Source of the DNA: an uncultured Bacilli bacterium
GTDB lineage: Bacteria > Bacillota_I > Bacilli_A > RF39 > UBA660
DNA length: 64,000 bases
Direction: 5' to 3'
Assembly: GCA_910587745.1 (NCBI GenBank)
Contig: CAJUNE010000002.1
Span: forward strand, 2,097 to 66,096
Positions 3,005 to 47,232 of this stretch are shown piece after piece. The first letter of the stretch is position 1; every line of letters starts with the position of its first letter. A program made the translations under genes and the position numbers. The notes beneath the pieces are model-generated. The model was not told where the DNA came from and ran no database searches. It saw only the letters and a program-made list of their open reading frames with translations.

Positions 3005-3010
3005 CTTTTT

Positions 3011-3095
3011 ATTATTTTTACAGATTTTGTGTTTTTAGCTAGACAGATTTTATGTATTCTGTTTTTGACTTGTGTCTTTTTGTATGGTATCTTGA
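3011..3095 (+). promoter_or_regulatory. promoter with upstream CAGATTT-type repeats (paralog of 47090-47232)
   Basis: TTGACT (3065-3070), a 17-nt spacer containing a TGn extension, then TATCTT. It is preceded by ACAGATTTT and TAGCTAGACAGATTTT. About 65 nt are roughly 80 % identical to 47165-47230. Confidence 0.55.
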
Positions 3096-3116
3096 TTGGT
3101 GAAAGGAATATTTTAT

Positions 3117-5837: not shown

Positions 5838-5876
5838 TTTTATTCCTCTTTTCTGTATTTTATTATAACATATTTA

Positions 5877-6818
5877 TTAATATTCTTTTAGTATTTTTAA
5901 ATAGTTCTTTAATTCATTACTAGGATTTATTTCTAAGCAATAGTTTATTCTTCCTATAATGCTATTTAAATATTTCTCTTTATCTTTTTTTAGATGTTTA
6001 CAATGACTTTCTAGTCCATATTTTTTTATATAATACATCTCTTGTCTTATTTTTCTTTTATATTCTTTCATTATATTTATTTTCTTATTTACTATTATAC
6101 CTGTTACTAATTGTCTACTATTATTTTGGATAACTTTTGTTTTTTTCTCATTTAAATTATATCCCATTTCCTCTAAAAAAACTTCAACTTTATTCTTAAG
6201 CTTTTTGACATTAAAATCACCTGAAAATGTTAAATCATCACAATATCTTGTGTAACTTATTTTTCTGTCTTCACAATATTTTCCTATATATTCATCAAAA
6301 TTTTTTAAAGCTAAATTTGATAAATAAGGACTGGTAGGAGCGCCTTGTGGTAAATAATCATAGTATGTACATAGTTTAACTAATAATACTTTTATTTCTT
6401 TAGGGAATATACTATTTGGTAAGGAATTATAAATATTCTCAAATGTGATGTTAGTAAAAAAATCTTTTATGTCTAGTTTTAAAATGACTTTTTTATCTAT
6501 ATGAGGATAAGCATTGTCTACTAGTTTTTTATTTGGTATGTATGCACAGGCATATTTAGATATTTTTAAACCATATAAAACATTATTTAATATATTCTTT
6601 TGAATACTTTTTAAGATTGGTTTTGGTACTAATAACTCTCTTTTAGTCCCATCTTTTTTATTTATATATTTGGAAGTATAAAACTTTTCAGGTTTATTAC
6701 TTATAGTGTATAAGATATTTAATTTTTCTTTATCACTAAACTTATTTTTTACTAAGTCTAATGATAAAATAAATTCCTTAATTTGTTCTTTGGTTAAATA
6801 CTTCCACATTAAAATCAC
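5877..6818 (-). CDS. retron-type reverse transcriptase
   Basis: LPQGAPTSPYLSNL, YTRYCDDLTFSG (YxDD), NAYPH (NAxxH) and RQLVTGIIVNKK (VTG). About 310 aa with no extra domain. The probable true start is ATG 6809, after AAAGGTGA. Confidence 0.85.
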   Translation of the reverse strand: MILMWKYLTKEQIKEFILSLDLVKNKFSDKEKLNILYTISNKPEKFYTSKYINKKDGTKRELLVPKPILKSIQKNILNNVLYGLKISKYACAYIPNKKLVDNAYPHIDKKVILKLDIKDFFTNITFENIYNSLPNSIFPKEIKVLLVKLCTYYDYLPQGAPTSPYLSNLALKNFDEYIGKYCEDRKISYTRYCDDLTFSGDFNVKKLKNKVEVFLEEMGYNLNEKKTKVIQNNSRQLVTGIIVNKKINIMKEYKRKIRQEMYYIKKYGLESHCKHLKKDKEKYLNSIIGRINYCLEINPSNELKNYLKILKEY

Positions 6819-6824
6819 CTTTAA

Positions 6825-7001
6825 AAAGCAGTACTTTAAAATTATCTTATATAGATATCATGGACAAAAGTATAATGAAATTATACCTTAGCCTTTAGGC
6901 GGGTCCTTGCTAGCTATATTAGTAAATGAGTTATATAAAATCTTTCGAATAAGCGACTCGCTTTTCTATCTGCTATTTCAAACAGAAACCTCTACTGCTT
7001 T
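6825..7001 (-). ncRNA. candidate retron msr/msd non-coding RNA
   Basis: A 9-bp inverted repeat: AAAGCAGTA (7001-6993) and TACTGCTTT (6833-6825). G6992 follows directly after the 5' repeat. Internal hairpins include GTATAAT-TTC-ATTATAC. It starts just downstream of an extended -10 and ends just before the RT RBS. Confidence 0.45.
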
Positions 7002-7007
7002 ATTCGT

Positions 7008-7016
7008 ATTATAACA
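7008..7016 (-). promoter_or_regulatory. extended -10 promoter element in front of the candidate msr/msd
   Basis: TGtTATAAT read on the minus strand. The predicted TSS falls at about 7001-7003, the first bases of the a2-like repeat. Confidence 0.45.
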
Positions 7017-7050
7017 GATATAATATTAAAATGCACTAATTATTTTTTTA

Positions 7051-7345
7051 TTATGTCGAAATCTGTCGTACGAATTTTGTTGCTATTTACTCTTTAATAA
7101 TTTAGAATAATAACTTGAGCGTTAGGGCTAATGCATTTACTTATACCATTATTTTTTATTCTATTACATTCCCTTGGGGGTTTTGACGTAGAAAGGAAGT
7201 GATGTTGTGGAGTTTCGGATAAGAGTAATTTTACCGTTTAAAAAAACATTAGTCTTAAAGATAAGGCTAATGCTTACACGCAAGTAGTAGGCGTTAGACT
7301 AACCCTAACGCTCTACTAATTTAATATTAACATATTTTTTAAATA
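7051..7345 (-). ncRNA. structured RNA locus, paralog A (unknown family), directly upstream of the retron
   Basis: Conserved extended -10 (TGtTAATAT, -10 at 7329-7324). An 11-bp closing helix pairs 7313-7303 with 7127-7117. Helices are compensated relative to paralog B. No ORF is conserved between the copies. The 3' tail (7051-7123) is conserved. Confidence 0.6.
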
Positions 7346-7353
7346 ATTACAAC

Positions 7354-8901
7354 CTAGATAGTTGTTACGCCATTAATTCCAATTGGTAAACCTATTATAA
7401 ACCATACTATTAATAAAGCTAGTAATATTATACCTACTAACATAGTATATGGCATTTGATATCTTAGTGTTTTAAATAGATTAATTGGCTTGGAACTTTG
7501 ATTATATTTTTCTAAATAAGCAAGATATATACAATAATATGCCATTAATGGTGTTATACCCATAGTTACTGATTCACCAAATCTAAATATTGTTTGACTA
7601 AATTCTGGAGATATACCAATATTCATAAGAGTTGGTACAGCTATACCTGCCATTATAGCCCATTTAAAGCTTGAGTTTGGTAAGAATAAAGTTGAAATCG
7701 CAGTTATAATAAATAATATTACTATTAACGGAAAAGCTCCTAAGCCTTCTATAGTTAAGATATTTACTAAAGCTGCAGTTATAACTTCACCTATACCAGT
7801 TTTCTTAAATATACTTATAAATGTTGAAGCTAAAAATATTAATACTAATGTCTTTCCTATTCCATCTAAACTATGACCTAAATCGTCACAGAAATCTTTA
7901 TTGTTTCTAATAGTCTTAGCTCCAATACCATAAAAGAAACCTAATATGATAAACAACATTGTTACTACAAAGACAAATCCATGGCTGAAAAATGATGTTG
8001 GACTAAATAATTTATCGATATAGAATAACTTAGTATTATCTAGTAATGCTCCTGATAAAGGTAATCCTGGAATAATACAATAAATAAATATTAATAAATA
8101 TACTAAACCTGCTAGTCCTGCTAAAACTAATCCTTTTAGCTCTTTTTTATTTATCGTTAAATCCTCTTCTAAAGAACTTTCAGGAAATTCATACTTTGGT
8201 AATCTAGGAACTATAAAGTTTTCGGTAACAGATGTTATGACAAAAGCTAATATGATTATAGCTACTAACATAATAAATATAAAAGCTGTTGTTCCAAGAG
8301 CATAACTAGAATTTATCATATGTGAACCTAATAATGTATTTATTAAAAGCTCAGAATCTGTTGCAGTAAATAATACACTTAATCCTGTACCAGCACTGAG
8401 AGCTGCAAAAGATGATATTATTCCTATATAGGGATTACGTCTTCCATATTCAAATATCAAGGCACTTAGTGGTATCATAATAACATATGGTAAATTGCCC
8501 ATAACACTAGATAATAAACATATAAGAACTAGTACAAAAGTTACATTTTTCTTTTTAGCTTTTTTTGTTAATAGTGTTATTGCTGTTTTTAAGAATCCAC
8601 TTTTTTCCATTACACCTATACCAATTAATATGATTATTAAACTTGATAAGGGAGTAAATGATATAAAGTTTGATACGGTATTGGTAAATATATATTTTAA
8701 ACCACTTAAACTAAATAAAGATTCGACTGATACTAACCCTTGAGTATACTCTATATTAACATCACTTGCTATTTTATTATAAGTTACGTGTGTTCCTAAA
8801 AGGTGCAAAAAACCACTTAAAACAATGGTTGCTACTATTAAAATTAGTAATGTCATTATAGGATCTAAGGTTATTCTATCTTTAATTGACCTCTTTTTCA
8901 T
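7354..8901 (-). CDS. AbgT-family (p-aminobenzoyl-glutamate-type) transporter
   Basis: 515 aa, polytopic, with AbgT-like blocks (FTPLSSLIIILIGIGVMEKSGF, GESVTMGITP). GGAGG RBS. Confidence 0.8.
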   Translation of the reverse strand: MKKRSIKDRITLDPIMTLLILIVATIVLSGFLHLLGTHVTYNKIASDVNIEYTQGLVSVESLFSLSGLKYIFTNTVSNFISFTPLSSLIIILIGIGVMEKSGFLKTAITLLTKKAKKKNVTFVLVLICLLSSVMGNLPYVIMIPLSALIFEYGRRNPYIGIISSFAALSAGTGLSVLFTATDSELLINTLLGSHMINSSYALGTTAFIFIMLVAIIILAFVITSVTENFIVPRLPKYEFPESSLEEDLTINKKELKGLVLAGLAGLVYLLIFIYCIIPGLPLSGALLDNTKLFYIDKLFSPTSFFSHGFVFVVTMLFIILGFFYGIGAKTIRNNKDFCDDLGHSLDGIGKTLVLIFLASTFISIFKKTGIGEVITAALVNILTIEGLGAFPLIVILFIITAISTLFLPNSSFKWAIMAGIAVPTLMNIGISPEFSQTIFRFGESVTMGITPLMAYYCIYLAYLEKYNQSSKPINLFKTLRYQMPYTMLVGIILLALLIVWFIIGLPIGINGVTTI

Positions 8902-9088
8902 TCTTTCCTCCTATTACTTTTTTTAACTTTTTTGTAAATTCTAAACGGTCTAGCATTACTTCCCGTCCACAATTTAAACACTTTATTTTAATATCTACTC
9001 CCATTCTTGTTATTTGCCACTCATTTGTGCCACAAGCATGGGGTTTCTTCATTATTACTATATCATTTATATTAAATGTCTTGTCCAT
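8882..9088 (-). CDS. DUF951-family small protein
   Basis: MDKTFNINDIVIMKKPHACGTNEWQITRMGVDIKIKCLNCGREVMLDR is the typical DUF951 sequence with a CxxC pair. The start is taken at the internal Met. Confidence 0.75.
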   Translation of the reverse strand: MDKTFNINDIVIMKKPHACGTNEWQITRMGVDIKIKCLNCGREVMLDRLEFTKKLKKVIGGKNEKEVN

Positions 9089-9896
9089 GATGTACCTCGA
9101 TTTGATTGTATGGAATTTTAATATTGTTTTTATCATATGCTAGTTTTATTCTTTTTAGCATTTCTCTTCTAATGTTATATCTTTTGTTTTGGTCACAATT
9201 AATCTTTACTAAGTATTTTACTGATGACGTGCCTAAATCATTAATTCCTAAATATTCACTATCAGGGAGAATTAATTTTTCTACTATTGCTTTATCTATA
9301 ACGCCCATTAATACTTTTTCGACTTTGCTTTCTTTTTCTTCATATGCTGTGTCTATCTCCAGATATAAATTGGCTTTCTTTTGAGATAAATTAACTATCG
9401 TATCAATGTTACGATTGGCTATAACCATTACTTCACCACTAGCTTTTTTTATCTTTGTAACTCTTAAACCTAATTCAATTACTTCACCAGTAAAATCATT
9501 ATAAGTTACAGTATCTCCTACAGCTAAATAGTTTTCTAATATTAATGATATACCACTTATAAAGTCTTTTAATGTATCTTGTAATGCTAAACCTAGAACA
9601 GCTCCAGCTACTCCAATACTAGCTATTAAACTTTTAGTATTAACTCCATAAAAATCTAATATTATTAAACCTGCGATAATATATATTATATATTTAAAAA
9701 TACTTCCTATTAATTCAATTATAGTCTTTCTTCTTTTAGCTTCATAATCTGTCTTGCCTTTAATTAATATTTTAGAAACTACATTTTTAAATATTTTAAC
9801 TAAAATTATAGCGATTATAATAGTTAGTAATGTTCCTAATACTTTCTTGGTTAAAACGAAATCTAAAATATTTTCAATAAATGTTTTAAAATTCAT
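9072..9896 (-). CDS. small-conductance mechanosensitive channel (MscS family)
   Basis: Three N-terminal TM segments and the MscS beta-domain motif GDTVTYNDFTGEVIELGLRVTKIK. Confidence 0.85.
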   Translation of the reverse strand: MNFKTFIENILDFVLTKKVLGTLLTIIIAIILVKIFKNVVSKILIKGKTDYEAKRRKTIIELIGSIFKYIIYIIAGLIILDFYGVNTKSLIASIGVAGAVLGLALQDTLKDFISGISLILENYLAVGDTVTYNDFTGEVIELGLRVTKIKKASGEVMVIANRNIDTIVNLSQKKANLYLEIDTAYEEKESKVEKVLMGVIDKAIVEKLILPDSEYLGINDLGTSSVKYLVKINCDQNKRYNIRREMLKRIKLAYDKNNIKIPYNQIEVHHGQDI

Positions 9897-9898
9897 TT

Positions 9899-10781
9899 TT
9901 AATCACCTTCAATGTTTATATTTAATTCTTCTAATATACGAGTTAATTCTTCGTCATCTTTATATGGTATTTCTATTTTTTTATTGTTAATCTTTACTTT
10001 AACGCCTAGTCTTTCACGACATAAGTTTTCATAAATACTAAACTTTATATCAAATGTTGAGGCTCTATTTATGTTGTGCTTTTTAGGTATGTTTTCAGCA
10101 TTAATTAATTTCTCGGTATCCCTTACACTTAAGCCTTCTCTTACTATTTTATATGCTAATTCATTAATCTTGTTTTCATCTTCTAGTTTACTTAATGCCC
10201 TAGCATGACCCATTGATAACTCTTTTTTTTCAACTAATTTAATAGTACTCTCAGGTAAATTTAATAAACCTAACATATTTGTTATGTAACTTCTACTTTT
10301 AGAGAATTTGTGCGCTAACTCTTCTTGAGTTATATTATTTATCTTAATGATATTTTCATAAGCTTTGGCCTCTTCAATGGGATTTAAATTCTCTCTTTCA
10401 ATGTTTTCTATAAGAGCTATTTCCATCATTTCAACATCATTAAAATCTTTGATTATAGCGGGAATTGTTTTTAAACCTGCTAGTCTAGCTGCTCTTGTTC
10501 TTCTTTCTCCTGCAACTAATTCATAGCCTTTGATACTTTTTTTAACAATTATAGGTTGAATAATTCCGTGCTCTTTAATTGAATTTGCTAATTCTTCTAA
10601 TGTGTCATTATCAAACATAACACGAGGTTGATAAGGATTACTTCTTATTTCCTCTAAAGGTATTTCGGTTATACCTCCTGTTTGTTTACCCTCGTCAACT
10701 ATCTCAGTTTCAAATTTGTTGAAATTGATTACTTCATTTGAAAATAATTGCTCTAATCCTTTTCCTAAAGCTTTTTTGCGA

Positions 10782-10795
<14 letters not shown>
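9899..10795 (-). CDS. parB: chromosome partitioning protein ParB / Spo0J
   Basis: NPYQPR, GIIQPIIV, LVAGERRTRAA and an HTH; overlaps parA. Confidence 0.95.
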
Positions 10796-11567
<772 letters not shown>

Positions 11568-11675
11568 AATGCTACACCTCTTTATATTATAATTAGATAA
11601 CTAGAATTATTTTATCATATAATTCTCTTTTTGTCTTTAATTTTAGATAATTATTTTTAGTTTTTAAAGCCTATC

Positions 11676-12218
11676 TTAGTATATTTTTATTTCTGTTATT
11701 AAATAGTCTAATCTTATATCTGTTTTATCGCTTTTTATTTCTTTGGTTATTTGTTCTTCATAACATAAACCTATTTTTTTAATATTTGTATTACTTAAAT
11801 ATTTGTCATAATAACCTTTACCATAACCAATTCGATTCCTATTTTTATCAAAACATATTCCTGGAATAATTATTAAATCTATTTCTTCTTTTTTTATTGG
11901 TTTTTTATTTTTTACTTTTGGTTCTTTAATATTAAATGCTCCTACTTCTAAATCTTTTAAACAATTTATCTCATAAAAGTCCATAGTATTATCTTTGTTT
12001 ATTTTAGGTAAAACTACTTTTTTGCTCTCTAAACTTATTTTAATTAATTCTTTTGTTTCTACTTCTGAAGATATATTACTATATAAAGCGATAACTTTAC
12101 TTTTTTGATACTCTTTTGTATTTATTAATCTTTTAATTATTTCACTACTTTTTTTATCTCTATTATTAATATTATCTCGAATTATTTTATATCTCTTTCT
12201 TAATTCTTCTTTATTCAT
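11676..12218 (-). CDS. 5-formyltetrahydrofolate cyclo-ligase
   Basis: NRIGYGKGYYDKYL motif and appropriate size. The start is taken at MNKEEL. Confidence 0.8.
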   Translation of the reverse strand: MNKEELRKRYKIIRDNINNRDKKSSEIIKRLINTKEYQKSKVIALYSNISSEVETKELIKISLESKKVVLPKINKDNTMDFYEINCLKDLEVGAFNIKEPKVKNKKPIKKEEIDLIIIPGICFDKNRNRIGYGKGYYDKYLSNTNIKKIGLCYEEQITKEIKSDKTDIRLDYLITEIKIY

Positions 12219-13086
12219 TATTAACCTCAATAGGATTTACATGAATTATAGTTTTGTATATTTTACGATATTTATTAACAATTTCTGTTTCTAAAGTATC
12301 TGCGATATTATGTGATTCAAAAGTACTTAAATTACCATCAACATCTATTGTTAATATCGCTATATATTTATAACCAGTTGCAATAGTATAAAAATCACTT
12401 ACTTTTTTCACATTTTTATTACTTAATATATAATCTATTATTTTGGCTTTTTCTTCTTTTTCAATAGATATATCCATTAGTATTTTATAACTTTCAATAA
12501 ATATCTCAATGCCACTAAACATTATATATAGAGAAATAATCGCGCCAAATATTCCGTCAAAATAGTAAAATCCATATTTGCCTAAGATACATGATATTAA
12601 AGTACCTGTTGTTAATATCATATCATTTCGATGGTCTTTCATACTAGCTTTAATTAAAATATTTGAATGTTTCTTGTACTCTTTCTTGCAATAGCAATAT
12701 AAAATAAATTTAATTATAATTGTTATTATACATACTAATATTAAATAATAAGAGAATATAAATTCATTTTTAATTATAATAGATGTTATAGATGTAATTA
12801 GTATTTTACCTGCTATTATAATCATAAATATGCTTATTAATAAAGAAAATATATATTCAGCTTTACCATGACCAAAATTATGATTGTCGTCTTTGGGTAT
12901 ACTAGCTATTTTATTTCCAATTGATGTCATTAGAGATGAAAATATATCACCTGCAGAATTTAAGGCATCTGCTAACATAGCTTCACTATGACTAATTATT
13001 GCAACCGATATCTTGATTATTAATAAAAATATATTGCCGATAATTCCTAATAATCCTACTTTTTTTGTACTTTCATATCTATTCAT
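12211..13086 (-). CDS. cation diffusion facilitator family transporter
   Basis: Six TM segments, HSEAMLADALNSAGD in TM2 and a cytoplasmic C-terminal domain. Confidence 0.85.
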   Translation of the reverse strand: MNRYESTKKVGLLGIIGNIFLLIIKISVAIISHSEAMLADALNSAGDIFSSLMTSIGNKIASIPKDDNHNFGHGKAEYIFSLLISIFMIIIAGKILITSITSIIIKNEFIFSYYLILVCIITIIIKFILYCYCKKEYKKHSNILIKASMKDHRNDMILTTGTLISCILGKYGFYYFDGIFGAIISLYIMFSGIEIFIESYKILMDISIEKEEKAKIIDYILSNKNVKKVSDFYTIATGYKYIAILTIDVDGNLSTFESHNIADTLETEIVNKYRKIYKTIIHVNPIEVNNE

Positions 13087-33244: not shown

Positions 33245-33763
33245 TTATCTGTGTCTTATATAATTTAATGTTTTAGTTGTTAATGGTTTTAATATTAAAT
33301 ACATAATATATCCAATAATTCCACCTGTGACATTAGTTATTAAATCTGTTATGTCTGCTGACCTAACTCCATTTATCAAAGGCTGTAATAGTTCGATACT
33401 TAAGCTTAATAAAAAAGTATAAAAAACAACTTTTAATAGTTTATCATTTTCTTTTTTTACTAAAGGCATTAAAAAACCAAAAGGAATCGTCATTATCACA
33501 TTTAATCCAACTTGTCTAATAAAGTCTCCTCTACCATTTAAAACATCAATAAAAGGAACCAAATTCATTCTATCATATGGATGATTAAATATAAATGGTA
33601 AAGATGTTATTATAGGCATTAAGGTAAAATATAGTACAAAAGATAAGTATATATACATAAGAGTATTTATAAGTAGTATATCTTTACCTTCTTCTTTCCA
33701 TTTCTTATAAAATTTCCAAAAATATATTATTATTAAAATTACAAAATCCATTAATTCTTTCAT
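33245..33763 (-). CDS. VanZ-family membrane protein
   Basis: NLVPF...N..MTIPFGFL...ELLQ...R..D..D motifs and four TM segments. Confidence 0.8.
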   Translation of the reverse strand: MKELMDFVILIIIYFWKFYKKWKEEGKDILLINTLMYIYLSFVLYFTLMPIITSLPFIFNHPYDRMNLVPFIDVLNGRGDFIRQVGLNVIMTIPFGFLMPLVKKENDKLLKVVFYTFLLSLSIELLQPLINGVRSADITDLITNVTGGIIGYIMYLILKPLTTKTLNYIRHR

Positions 33764-33781
33764 ATTATTTTTCTCCTCAAT

Positions 33782-33956
33782 AAATTACTATTTATGCACA
33801 ACTTTGTATTAAATATTATACCATTAAAAAAGCAAAATCTAAACTGATTCTACTCTTATTTTAAAAAAAAATTATCTAGTCTAACACCTAGTATTATAGA
33901 AATTTGGTATAAGTTTTTAAGCAAAAAAAGTGGAACCTTTCAACTCCTTCAGGGGG
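33782..33956 (-). repeat. about 175-bp terminator-plus-promoter module, copy A (upstream of vanZ-like gene)
   Basis: About 90 % identical by eye to 34485-34659. It contains CCCCCTGAAGGAGTTGAAAGGTTCCAC plus a T-run and an extended -10 TGgTATAAT. Confidence 0.8.
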
Positions 33957-34123: not shown

Positions 34124-34471
34124 TTAGACAATATTTTCACCCAAAATTATTTTAGGCATTGTCATTAAACATCTATTCCAACGTTTATAAAATTTTTCTA
34201 CACCAAGTTTAGACACTCTTGCATGTGCTTCTTCGCTTTCTAGCACCCAATATAAGACATATATAACCTTACCCACATTTTTTGTAAGTCGGATAGGTAG
34301 CTCACCTTTTTTTACTGCATTAAAATCTTTTTGTCGATGAGTACGTTTTATATAATGTACATCAATAACTCCATCTTGTTTCAAATAAAATTCTGCTACT
34401 TCCTTCATTAGTTCTTCAATTTCATCAAGTTTGTTTAGTTTCGCTTCATATATACATATTTCATTAAACAT
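34124..34471 (-). CDS. hypothetical protein (115 aa), possibly a dimeric alpha-beta-barrel fold
   Basis: An intact ORF behind the repeated promoter module. The function call is weak. Confidence 0.45.
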   Translation of the reverse strand: MFNEICIYEAKLNKLDEIEELMKEVAEFYLKQDGVIDVHYIKRTHRQKDFNAVKKGELPIRLTKNVGKVIYVLYWVLESEEAHARVSKLGVEKFYKRWNRCLMTMPKIILGENIV

Positions 34472-34484
34472 ATTCCACCTCTAC

Positions 34485-34659
34485 AAATTACTATTTGTGC
34501 AACACTTTATATAAAAATATTATACCATTAAAAAAGTAAAATCTAAACTAATTCTACTCTTATTTTAAAAAAATTATCTAGTCTAAGACCTAGTATTATA
34601 GAAATTTGGTATAAATTTTTAAGCAAAAAAAAGTGGAGCCTTTCGGCTCCTTCAGGGGG
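34485..34659 (-). repeat. about 175-bp terminator-plus-promoter module, copy B
   Basis: Paralog of 33782-33956. Its 5' (minus-strand) part doubles as the terminator of the candidate sRNA. Confidence 0.8.
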
Positions 34660-44427: not shown

Positions 44428-44853
44428 ATGGAAAAAATTAAAGAATTATACACTAAATATGAAGAGATTATTAATTATTTAATTGTGGGAGTTTTAACTA
44501 CTGTTGTTAGTCTTGCTACTTATTTTATTTGTACTGAAACATTTTTAGACCCTAATAAAAAATTAGAACTACAAATTGCTAATATTATTTCTTGGATATT
44601 CGCTGTTGCTTTCGCTTATTTCACTAATAGAAAATACGTTTTTAAAAGTAAAAATAAAAATATGCTAAAAGAAGCTTCCTCTTTTGTAGGCTCTAGAATT
44701 CTTAGTCTTTTAATGGATATGTTTACAATGTTTATTATTGTTTCAGTTTTACATCTTAATGATAAAATTGGTAAACTTGTTTCTCAAGTTATTGTTACAA
44801 TTGCTAATTATATATTAAGTAAATTATTTGTATTTAAGAAAAAAGAAAACTAG
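44428..44853 (+). CDS. GtrA-family membrane protein
   Basis: Four TM segments and the FAYFTNRKYVFKS motif. ATG 44428 follows AAAGGAG. Confidence 0.8.
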   Translation: MEKIKELYTKYEEIINYLIVGVLTTVVSLATYFICTETFLDPNKKLELQIANIISWIFAVAFAYFTNRKYVFKSKNKNMLKEASSFVGSRILSLLMDMFTMFIIVSVLHLNDKIGKLVSQVIVTIANYILSKLFVFKKKEN

Positions 44854-44859
44854 TATTTA

Positions 44860-45197
44860 TTTAGAAAATATGTTAATATTAAATTAGTAGAGCGTTAGGA
44901 TGCAATCTAATATCTACTTTTTGGGTAAGACATTGACTGTAATAGTTAATGTCATTTTTATTATTCTGAACAAGGTTACCCTTATTTGAACCTTCATCTA
45001 ATCACACTCCTTACTAGCCCAAAACCCCGTAGGATAAAGAAGAGTCGGATAGTGAATAGAAAAGGCAGACATTAGCCCTAACGCTCAAGGTATTATTCTA
45101 ATTTATTAAGTATTAAATGGCAATAAAATTCGTACGACAGATTTCGACATAACACTTAAAAAGATGTGATTTTTTATAGTCACATCTTCTTTGTTTT
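44860..45197 (+). ncRNA. structured RNA locus, paralog B (unknown family), stand-alone with its own terminator
   Basis: It has the same extended -10 (TGtTAATAT, 44871-44879). A 10-bp closing helix pairs 44890-44899 with 45077-45086. The conserved tail is 45087-45152, and the terminator is AAGATGTGA-N10-TCACATCTT (45161-45188). Confidence 0.6.
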
Positions 45198-47089: not shown

Positions 47090-47232
47090 ATTATTTTTTT
47101 AATTTTACAGATTTAAGGTAAACTGCTATATAGATTTGTGACCTTTAGCTTAGCAGATTTAGTGCTTTTAGCTAGGCAGATTTTTAGGATTCTGTTTTTG
47201 ACTTTTATTATTTTGTATGTTATTTTGTTTTC
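47090..47232 (+). promoter_or_regulatory. promoter with 3-4 upstream CAGATTT-type repeats (paralog of 3011-3095)
   Basis: Upstream repeats: ACAGATTTAAGG, ATAGATTTGTG, TTAGCTTAGCAGATTTAGTG and TTAGCTAGGCAGATTTTTAGG. The promoter is TTGACT (47198-47203), a 17-nt spacer with TGt, then TATTTT (47221-47226). Confidence 0.55.

What the first reader, a model, noticed from the sequence alone, without database searches (positions are those of the whole stretch)
5877..7016. Retron-type RT with plausible msr/msd but no effector gene, wedged between ychF and an AbgT transporter
The 313-aa ORF has the RT palm motifs (LPQGAPTSP, YCDD). It also has the two signatures usually treated as retron-specific: NAxxH (NAYPH) and VTG (QLVTGIIVN). 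An msr/msd-like layout lies upstream in the same orientation:
- an extended -10, TGtTATAAT (7016-7008);
- AAAGCAGTA (7001-6993), followed directly by G6992;
- about 160 nt rich in hairpins;
- the complement TACTGCTTT (6833-6825), directly before the RT RBS.
This matches the a2 / branching-G / a1 layout of retron ncRNAs. Retrons are normally tripartite (RT, ncRNA and effector), and the effector is what is missing here. The RT has no fused domain. The next gene, 39 nt downstream, is canonical ychF, and the upstream neighbour is a transporter. The effector could be in trans, the locus could be a decayed remnant, or it could be a different arrangement, for example one involving the RNA locus just upstream.
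Basis: partly seen in the sequence, partly recalled or inferred. Interest (0 to 1): 0.65.

Follow-up and report, generated by a model that had tools for sequence, protein, structure and literature searches.

The report
Effector-less Ec107-like retron beside ychF
This is an intact retron (a reverse transcriptase plus the structured RNA it copies into small DNA) of the known "Ec107-like" group, which typically has no toxin partner gene; here it has been kept in one chromosomal spot in mouse-gut Bacilli, and its cellular role is unknown.

Summary
The minus strand of window 5877-7016 holds a complete 310-aa retron reverse transcriptase (RT). It is preceded by an msr/msd non-coding RNA gene with its own extended -10 promoter.

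- **Classification:** the RT's best defence-library match is PADLOC RT_Ec107-like (3.6e-122, full length).
- **ncRNA layout:** an automatic rule finds the same order in 29 of 32 related Bacillota loci, with compensatory changes. The order is promoter, a2, branching G, two msr hairpins (the second with a GCGAGUCG loop), msd hairpin, a1, ribosome-binding site (RBS), ATG.
- **No effector:** no accessory gene recurs next to these RTs. A PRTase effector appears only beside Bacteroidota type III-A relatives (about 43% identity).
- **Not a remnant:** abgT-RT-ychF synteny holds down to 63% RT identity, and RT dN/dS is 0.10-0.26.
- **Upstream element:** the "RNA locus" upstream is a separate 300-nt repeated element. 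It is not next to the RT in L003-L005.

Stand-alone (msr-msd)-RT cassettes of the clade 2 / Ec107 branch are already described (Mestre 2020). A 2026 metagenome survey calls them abundant, mostly in Bacillota, host-associated and without recurrent accessory genes. This is therefore a new member of a known kind. The function of the group remains open.

The parts
7008..7016 (-). Extended -10 promoter TGtTATAAT of the retron transcript
   Evidence: Read. A TGnTAnAAT-like or TAnAAT box lies 0-12 nt upstream of a2 in the related loci. The generic two-hexamer scan did not call it, because there is no -35 hexamer.
6993..7001 (-). a2 arm (AAAGCAGUA) of the closing inverted repeat; likely 5' end of the ncRNA
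   Evidence: Pairs with 6833-6825. The arm covaries across loci, e.g. AAAGCAAUA, GAGCAGCA, AGCAGGUA, UGCAGUG and AGAACAACA, each with a matching a1.
6992..6992 (-). Predicted branching (priming) guanosine
   Evidence: G directly follows a2 in the loci found by the rule, which required it. This agrees with the alignments made without that requirement. L028 is the exception, with C at this position. The 2'-5' branch itself is inferred from what is known of retrons and was not observed.
6964..6987 (-). msr hairpin 1 (9-bp stem; sequence varies between loci)
   Evidence: Minimum-free-energy folds of the window and of 16 homologous ncRNAs each place a hairpin here.
6951..6963 (-). msr hairpin 2 with the conserved loop/stem motif AGCGAGUCGCU
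   Evidence: The motif occurs only here in the 64-kb window; 0.04 matches are expected by chance. It is kept in the related loci, with a covarying extended stem. A type III-A relative, L033, shares it.
6846..6922 (-). msd stem-loop (Y-shaped: outer stem, middle stem, two terminal hairpins); template for the predicted msDNA
   Evidence: Fold. The consensus of the five syntenic or close loci keeps all four helices, with 13 of 40 pairs compensated. The extent of reverse transcription (about 6834 up to roughly 6925-6935) is inferred.
6825..6833 (-). a1 arm (UACUGCUUU), 15 nt before the RT start
6815..6822 (-). Ribosome-binding site AAAGGUGA of the RT
   Evidence: Read. An AGGAGG/AGGUG-type site follows a1 in the homologues.
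5877..6809 (-). Retron reverse transcriptase, 310 aa, Ec107-like (clade 2), no fused domain
   Evidence: PADLOC RT_Ec107-like 3.6e-122. Pfam RVT_1 only. Motifs located. Closest solved structures are retron RTs: Ec86 at 1.2e-33, then Kva2, Ec83, Ec67 and Ec78. dN/dS is 0.10-0.26.

Best explanation
This is a functional stand-alone retron of the clade 2 / Ec107-like group.

**Mechanism (steps 1-4 inferred from the anatomy and from what is known of retrons):**
1. A dedicated extended -10 promoter (7016-7008) starts a transcript at about 7001.
2. The first 177 nt of that transcript fold into the msr-msd RNA. The rest encodes the RT and probably reads on into ychF.
3. The RT binds the msr hairpins. 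The invariant GCGAGUCG hairpin is the likely recognition element.
4. The RT primes on the 2'-OH of G6992, which the a2/a1 stem holds next to the template. It copies the msd region from about 6834 upwards into a branched msDNA of roughly 90-100 nt.

**Shown here:**
- No toxin or effector gene is linked to this retron in any member of the Bacillota clade examined.
- The cassette has been inherited vertically at the abgT/ychF site under purifying selection.

**What the RT-msDNA particle does (my guess):** I think it most likely works with a partner that is not encoded next to it, or has an effector-free, host-beneficial role. The particle could act as a sensor or as a molecule that sequesters another factor. 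Classic cis toxin-antitoxin-like abortive infection seems less likely. This last step is inference and is the part most likely to be wrong.
For: - **RT identity:**
- **RNA:** the layout is kept with compensatory changes in 29 of 32 loci by an automatic rule. Two more loci were found by eye.
- **Selection and synteny:** abgT-RT-ychF-BI1 order is kept in L001-L005 while RT identity falls from 97% to 63%. RT dN/dS is 0.10-0.26, with dS similar to the flanking genes.
- **No cis effector:** no neighbour family recurs beyond close synteny. Neighbours are housekeeping genes such as CTP synthase, a Mur ligase, a ZIP transporter, TyrRS and ychF.
- **Sister group:** PRTase_III-A is found only beside the Bacteroidota RTs, whose own best profile is RT_III-A.
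- **No trans candidate in the window:**
- **Transcription:** metatranscriptome contigs cover the RT ORF in five runs. They cover the ncRNA in two runs (6781-6972 and 6775-6995), with nothing beyond 7001 in those two runs.
- **Literature:** stand-alone (msr-msd)-RT cassettes occur in a branch of clade 2 that includes Ec107 (PMC7736814). clade2_Ec107like has n=192, is 93% Bacillota and 91% host-associated, and has no recurrent accessory modules (10.64898/2026.05.14.725207). Clade 2 retrons are among the highest RT-DNA producers in E. coli (10.1101/2024.01.25.577267).
Against: - No msDNA was observed. Only assembled contigs were available, not raw reads, so no 5' ends, strand information or local depth could be read.
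- The RNA-run contigs are shallow (depth 2-7) and could include DNA carry-over.
- Rfam has no matching family. The published Ec107_like covariance model was not on hand, so the RNA class was matched by anatomy only.
- The rest of the genome could not be searched for an unlinked effector.
- One relative, L028, has C at the branch position and an altered hairpin 2, so some copies of the family may be decaying.
Confidence: 0.8

Rival explanations
1. Ordinary tripartite defence retron whose toxin or effector is encoded elsewhere in the genome (a split system). The RT-msDNA complex neutralises that unlinked toxin until phage infection.
For: All characterised retron defence works through an effector. 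The sister type III-A RTs carry a PRTase next door. Purifying selection on RT and RNA is what an antitoxin-like role would produce.
Against: No PRTase or other retron effector is found in 64 kb. Mestre et al. report that most genomes with orphan retrons lack homologues of known retron-associated proteins (PMC7736814). The locus is not in a defence island and has no close relatives on phages or plasmids.
Confidence: 0.3
2. Decayed remnant of a type III-A-like retron that lost its effector and is drifting towards loss.
For: The clade is sister to PRTase-bearing type III-A. Mestre et al. propose that the Ec107 branch lost the associated protein (PMC7736814). L028 shows signs of decay.
Against: The ORF is intact with all catalytic motifs. 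dN/dS is 0.10-0.26 over saturated dS. Synteny is kept to 63% identity. The RNA helices are kept by compensatory changes, the promoter is kept, and the locus is transcribed. Any effector loss is therefore old and clade-wide, and the RT-RNA pair has been maintained since.
Confidence: 0.04
3. ychF, or whichever gene lies downstream, is the functional partner. The retron is the first cistron of an operon, and its product regulates or is coupled to the downstream gene.
For: The downstream gene is co-oriented in 31 of 35 loci, with a median gap of 57 nt. Only 5 of those 31 have a terminator-like hairpin after the RT. In L005 the RT and ychF ORFs overlap by 4 nt. RNA contigs span the RT-ychF junction.
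Against: The downstream gene differs between lineages: ychF, a Mur ligase, a ZIP transporter, a cyclophilin-like protein and unknowns. ychF here is the canonical housekeeping gene (TIGR00092, 497 bits against a cutoff of 279) and has its own TGtTATAAT box in the 39-nt spacer. Co-orientation is the norm in Bacillota.
Confidence: 0.06
4. The retron works together with the 300-nt structured element just upstream (7051-7350), for example as a second template RNA.
For: The two are adjacent in the window, L001 and L002. The element folds strongly (z = -4.1) and has a long-range closing stem.
Against: The element has a second copy 38 kb away with no RT nearby. It is not next to the RT in L003-L005, where the gap upstream of the RT start is only about 230-300 nt. 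It carries no GCGAGUCG motif.
Confidence: 0.03

Closest known systems
Retron-Eco5 (Ec107) and the 'Ec107-like' stand-alone branch of retron RT clade 2 (Mestre et al. 2020, PMC7736814; clade2_Ec107like in the SPIRE survey, bioRxiv 10.64898/2026.05.14.725207)
   Same: The RT's best profile is RT_Ec107-like, full length. It is an (msr-msd)-RT cassette with an a1/a2 stem and a priming G. There is no recurrent accessory gene. The host is a host-associated member of the Bacillota, as for 93% and 91% of that group. It is chromosomal and not prophage-borne.
   Different: Ec107 itself is from E. coli. I could not compare its sequence or its msr/msd model directly. Here the cassette lies in the ParA/ParB (chromosome-partition) neighbourhood next to ychF, and I show it to be vertically inherited under purifying selection in one lineage of 26%-GC gut Bacilli.
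Type III-A(1) retrons (clade 2; RT + PRTase-like effector, with or without a winged-helix protein)
   Same: This is the second-best RT profile (RT_III-A, 350 bits). The conserved GCGAGUCG msr hairpin is shared with the III-A-type locus L033.
   Different: The PRTase effector is present beside L031 and L032 but absent from the window and from all Ec107-like loci examined.
Retron-Eco1 (Ec86), type II-A3, the structurally best-known retron
   Same: It is the closest solved RT (1.2e-33). RT size (320 aa against 310 aa) and RNA logic are the same.
   Different: Ec86 works with an adjacent NDT-type effector. None is present here.

Membership tests
Retron (general definition) | Reverse transcriptase of the retron lineage with the NAxxH and VTG signatures and a YxDD catalytic site | tested here: met
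   NAYPH, VTG and YCDD are located. The top 25 PADLOC hits are all retron RT profiles. The top PDB hits are retron RTs. The group II intron maturase and Drt2/Drt3a models score far below their cutoffs.
Retron (general definition) | Adjacent ncRNA with terminal inverted repeats a2/a1 and a conserved priming G directly after a2 | tested here: met
   a2 is 7001-6993, the G is 6992, and a1 is 6833-6825. The same layout occurs in 29 of 32 loci by rule. Covariation: 94.7% of cells paired against 35-60% in slid controls.
Retron (general definition) | msr region with one to three short hairpins and msd region with a long stem-loop | tested here: met
   There are two msr hairpins and a 77-nt Y-shaped msd stem-loop. 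The consensus has 13 compensated pairs.
Retron (general definition) | Production of branched msDNA (2'-5' RNA-DNA) | not testable with these tools
   Only assembled contigs of public runs were available. Clade 2 retrons in general produce abundant RT-DNA in E. coli (10.1101/2024.01.25.577267).
Retron as tripartite defence system | A linked effector or accessory gene, or a fused effector domain | tested here: not met
   The RT matches the 307-position profile end to end with nothing extra. No neighbour family recurs. PADLOC and Pfam scans of 128 neighbours found retron effectors only at two Bacteroidota loci. The window scan found none.
Clade 2 Ec107-like stand-alone retrons | RT scores best against the Ec107-like profile rather than the sister type III-A profile | tested here: met
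   405.5 against 349.7 bits for the window RT. The order is the same for L005, L006, L010, L017 and L023, and reversed for L031-L033.
Clade 2 Ec107-like stand-alone retrons | Match to the published Ec107_like msr/msd covariance model | not testable with these tools
   The model is not in Rfam (no hits) and was not available here. The RNA was matched by anatomy only.
Clade 2 Ec107-like stand-alone retrons | Bacillota, host-associated, no recurrent accessory module | tested here: met
   Related loci are gut MAGs labelled Bacilli, Tenericutes, Clostridia and similar. The sequence is in many mouse-gut metagenome runs. Neighbour analysis.
Type III-A retron | PRTase-like effector next to the RT | tested here: not met
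   tblastn with the L031 and L032 PRTases finds nothing below E = 0.7 in the window and nothing at E <= 1e-3 in the other loci.

The most novel reading that the evidence does not exclude
The Ec107-like retrons of gut Bacillota may not be toxin-based abortive-infection systems at all. They could be domesticated, vertically inherited msDNA producers. In that reading the RT-msDNA particle is itself the functional product: a regulator, a molecule that sequesters another factor, or an effector-free immune sensor. It would be expressed from its own promoter at the head of housekeeping operons and kept even in small, AT-rich genomes.
Probability: 0.3. Interest if true: 0.7.

Novelty: new member of a known kind. 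Interest (0 to 1): 0.3.

Why it matters
Retrons are now understood as three-part defence systems in which the effector does the killing. The Ec107-like group breaks that rule. According to a 2026 survey it is one of the most abundant retron groups in host-associated Bacillota, yet nobody knows what it does.

This locus is a clean and compact example. The promoter, 177-nt RNA and 310-aa RT fit in 1.14 kb. It is kept by purifying selection at a fixed chromosomal site, and five diverged syntenic loci (L001-L005) are available for comparison. That makes it a convenient test case for two questions: does an effector-free retron have a function, and what is that function? It may also be a compact RT-DNA producer for biotechnology. 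In itself it does not add a new kind of system.

Tried and rejected
- **Rfam.** A gathering-threshold scan of the whole window and a permissive scan of 6700-7450 found no family.
- **Generic promoter/terminator scan.** It missed the extended -10 because there is no -35. It called only the palindromic hairpin 2 on the wrong strand as terminator-like.
- **Trans effector in the window.** The PADLOC scan of 55 proteins gave only HTH and candidate (PDC) families. Only the top 25 of 62 families are listed, so weak single hits could be hidden. For that reason I also ran tblastn with two real type III-A PRTases, which found nothing.
- **msDNA in public data.** All DNA and RNA runs are stored as assembled contigs, so no local depth, ends or strand can be read.
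- **Strain polymorphism.** I laid DNA contigs on the region at 85% likeness to look for strains lacking the retron. Cross-matching ychF from other species dominated the result. Two low-depth joints in one run (5831->8585 and 5854->8967) have sides of only 34-59 nt, and I do not rely on them.
- **msd complementarity.** Only chance matches of 9-15 nt to other window sequence were found.
- **Small ORFs in the upstream repeated element.** None is shared by the two copies.
- **Direct comparison with E. coli Ec107.** Not done. No protein search is offered for the E. coli collection, and I would not write the sequence from memory.
- **Literature on the function of stand-alone retrons, 2021-2026.** Nothing resolves it.

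Full report
**What is there.** All features lie on the minus strand of the window, in this order:
- an extended -10 box, TGtTATAAT (7016-7008);
- six bases later, AAAGCAGTA (7001-6993), followed by G6992;
- a 177-nt structured stretch that ends in the exact complement TACTGCTTT (6833-6825);
- a ribosome-binding site, AAAGGTGA;
- an ORF to 5877.

The ORF list starts this ORF at GTG 6818, but that GTG is part of the RBS. The homologues all begin MWKY(L/I), so the start is most likely ATG 6809, giving 310 aa. The protein carries NAYPH (aa 99-103), LPQGAPTSP (153-161), YCDD (189-192) and VTG (235-237). Downstream, 39 nt later, is canonical ychF (TIGR00092, 497 bits against a cutoff of 279). Upstream is an AbgT-family transporter.

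**The protein.**
- Against PADLOC the best profile is RT_Ec107-like (retron): 3.6e-122, 405 bits, residues 8-308 on model positions 1-305 of 307. RT_III-A follows at 350 bits, and other retron RT types score lower.
- Pfam sees only RVT_1.
- NCBIfam retron models match below their strict cutoffs. The group II intron maturase, Drt2 and Drt3a models are far weaker.
- The closest solved structures are all retron RTs: Ec86 at 1.2e-33, then Kva2, Ec83, Ec67 and Ec78. A group II maturase appears only at 2.4e-11.
- The RT fills its profile end to end, so there is no fused effector domain.

**The RNA.**
- The window sequence folds with a2/a1 as the closing stem. Inside are a 9-bp hairpin, a short hairpin AGCGAGUCGCU, an A/U-rich linker and a 77-nt branched stem-loop. 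The energy is -41.3 kcal/mol with z = -2.7.
- On its own, a 9-bp inverted repeat in 26%-GC DNA means little. Every upstream region I scanned holds several chance repeats of that size. The comparison with relatives settles it.
- A scan of one genome per species returned 40 loci that encode relatives.
- An automatic rule found the same layout in 29 of the 32 Bacillota-type loci with enough upstream DNA. The layout is: a TAnAAT box (usually TGnTAnAAT) 0-12 nt before a2; a 7-12-nt a2 followed by G; a hairpin; a second hairpin with the motif (G/A)CGAGUCG; a variable msd stem-loop; a1 6-27 nt before the RT start.
- One of the 29 calls (L019) is a wrong pick by the rule. The homologous a2 there has one mismatch.
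- L013 and L022 have the layout but fall outside the rule's motif or distance limits.
- L028 deviates. It has C at the branch position and an altered hairpin 2.
- The arm sequence changes between lineages, and a1 changes with it: AAAGCAGUA, GAGCAGCA, AAAGCAAUA, AGCAGGUA, UGCAGUG, AGAACAACA and others.
- On a 12-sequence alignment, the closing stem plus hairpin 2 are 94.7% paired, against 35-60% when the 3' partners are slid by 1-3 columns. Eleven of 18 pairs carry changes on both sides. None of 500 shuffles reaches the observed covariation score.
- In the five closest loci the msd region keeps an outer stem, a middle stem and two terminal hairpins. Thirteen of the 40 pairs in the whole predicted structure are compensated.
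- The AGCGAGTCGCT motif occurs nowhere else in the 64-kb window; 0.04 matches are expected by chance.
- Rfam holds no matching family.

**No effector, in cis or in the window.**
- I clustered all ORFs within about 6 kb of the RT in the 40 loci. Apart from the RT itself, no family recurs except among close syntenic relatives.
- I scanned 128 immediate neighbours (positions -2, -1, +1, +2). The only retron effector was PRTase_III-A / PRTase-CE, in two proteins. Cluster c61, which occurs only beside the RTs of L031 (Pedobacter) and L032 (Bacteroidales), fits this. Its L031 member was confirmed as PRTase-CE by Pfam, and the L032 member is its homologue by tblastn.
- Those RTs are 43% identical to ours, and their best profile is RT_III-A, not Ec107-like.
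- Five further Bacillota RTs tested are Ec107-like first and III-A second, as is the window RT.
- The other neighbours are housekeeping genes: CTP synthase, a Mur ligase, TyrRS, a ZIP transporter, homocitrate-synthase-like and cyclophilin-like proteins, an RNA polymerase subunit, and ychF.
- In the window, a PADLOC scan of 55 proteins shows no retron effector.
- tblastn with the two real PRTases finds nothing.
- The rest of the genome could not be searched.

**Not a remnant.**
- The order abgT-RT-ychF-BI1 is kept in L001-L005. Over that series RT identity falls 97, 95, 73, 67, 63% and ychF identity 99, 98, 90, 86, 83%. L004 has two extra genes between abgT and the RT, so the RT-ychF link is the tighter one.
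- RT dN/dS against these five loci is 0.10-0.26. This is in the range of the neighbouring BI1 (0.04-0.23) and abgT (0-0.15). dS is as saturated as in the flanking genes, about 1-2 for L003-L005.
- The cassette has therefore diverged in step with its neighbours, under purifying selection.
- No relative above 43% identity is in the phage or plasmid collections.

**Expression.**
- Only assembled contigs of public runs were available.
- In mouse-gut metatranscriptomes, contigs cover parts of the RT ORF in five runs. In two of them a contig crosses the RT-ychF junction.
- In two other runs a contig covers the ncRNA (6781-6972 and 6775-6995). Those two runs have nothing between 7001 and the next gene's 3' region.
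- This fits a start near 7001 and read-through into ychF. It is weak evidence: depth is 2-7, there is no strand information, and DNA carry-over is possible.
- Across the family, the gene after the RT is co-oriented in 31 of 35 loci, with a median gap of 57 nt. Only 5 of those 31 show a terminator-like hairpin. In L005 the RT and ychF ORFs overlap by 4 nt.

**The upstream 'RNA locus'.**
- The 330 nt between abgT and the retron promoter hold a 300-nt element (7350-7051, minus strand). A second copy lies at 44853-45152 on the plus strand. Each copy starts at or within 4 nt of a stop codon.
- The ends are 92-96% alike and the core only about 60% alike. The core keeps a hairpin plus U-tract and a long-range stem, GAGCGUUAGGG...CCCUAACGCUC.
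- In strain L002 the copy at the retron site resembles window copy 2 (90%) more than copy 1 (76%).
- L003 has only a weak copy 4 kb from its RT, and L004 and L005 have none in the stretch fetched. In L003-L005 the gap upstream of the RT start is only about 230-300 nt, which the promoter and ncRNA largely fill.
- The element has no shared small ORF and no Rfam match.
- It is a separate, unexplained repeated element and not part of the retron.

**What is known.**
- Mestre et al. 2020 (PMC7736814) describe stand-alone (msr-msd)-RT cassettes in a branch of RT clade 2 that contains Retron-Eco5 (Ec107), and in clade 11. They note that this branch shares a node with PRTase-linked RTs and that most host genomes lack known retron-associated proteins. 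They leave open whether such retrons use unknown effectors in trans or have another function.
- A 2026 preprint on the SPIRE genomes (10.64898/2026.05.14.725207) counts clade2_Ec107like as the second most abundant retron group (192 candidates). [quoted passage not shown]
- The experimental census of retrons (10.1101/2024.01.25.577267) finds clade 2 among the strongest RT-DNA producers.
- I found nothing from 2021-2026 that resolves the function.

**Verdict.**
The locus is a real, maintained, effector-less retron.
- It belongs to a described category, so it is a new member of a known kind.
- This analysis adds four things for this lineage:
  1. evidence of vertical inheritance and purifying selection at a fixed site beside ychF;
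  2. a conserved promoter-to-RBS anatomy, with a near-invariant GCGAGUCG hairpin shared with a type III-A relative;
  3. the exclusion of the 'remnant' reading;
  4. no support for a role of the upstream RNA locus.
- What the RT-msDNA particle does without a linked effector remains the open question.

Noticed in passing
window 7051-7350 (- strand) and 44853-45152 (+ strand); also L002:4310-4610, L003:1852-2201, L041:1701-1723, L042:2820-2842: A 300-nt non-coding repeated element starts at or within 4 nt of a stop codon. Its ends are conserved (92-96%) and its core diverged (about 60%), but the core keeps a hairpin plus U-tract and a long-range stem GAGCGUUAGGG/CCCUAACGCUC. The RNA fold has z = -4.1. 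There is no Rfam match and no shared ORF. The core variant at the retron site differs between strains. The exact 23-nt 3' motif occurs in only two other contigs of the genome collection.
   Followed up: partly
window 5862-5870 (- strand): A second extended -10 box, TGtTATAAT, lies inside the 39-nt RT-ychF spacer. ychF can therefore probably be transcribed both on its own and by read-through from the retron. In L005 the RT and ychF ORFs overlap by 4 nt instead.
   Followed up: partly
window 8882-13086: The retron lies in a ParA/ParB chromosome-partition gene neighbourhood: DUF951, MscS-like channel, ParB_N and an AAA_31 (ParA-type) protein are among the window proteins. The ParA/ParB ORFs were not mapped individually.
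   Followed up: no
window 33767-33956 and 34470-34659: A block of about 190 nt of non-coding sequence is duplicated 703 nt apart at 79-97% identity. Each copy lies just upstream of a minus-strand ORF (33245-33763 and 34124-34471).
   Followed up: no
window 3007-3097 and 47094-47230: An intergenic stretch of 86 nt is repeated 44 kb apart at 80% identity. It contains reiterated CAGATTT motifs.
   Followed up: no
L028:2323-2572: One Ec107-like relative (a Eubacteriales MAG) has C instead of G at the branch position, an extended a2/a1 stem and an altered hairpin 2 (GUGACUCG). It is either a decaying copy or a variant that primes from a neighbouring G.
   Followed up: no
L033:4713-5602: In the Mucilaginibacter type III-A locus, two short co-oriented ORFs of 180 and 123 aa lie upstream of the RT, where L031 and L032 have a PRTase of about 300 aa. 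This may be a split or frameshifted effector.
   Followed up: no
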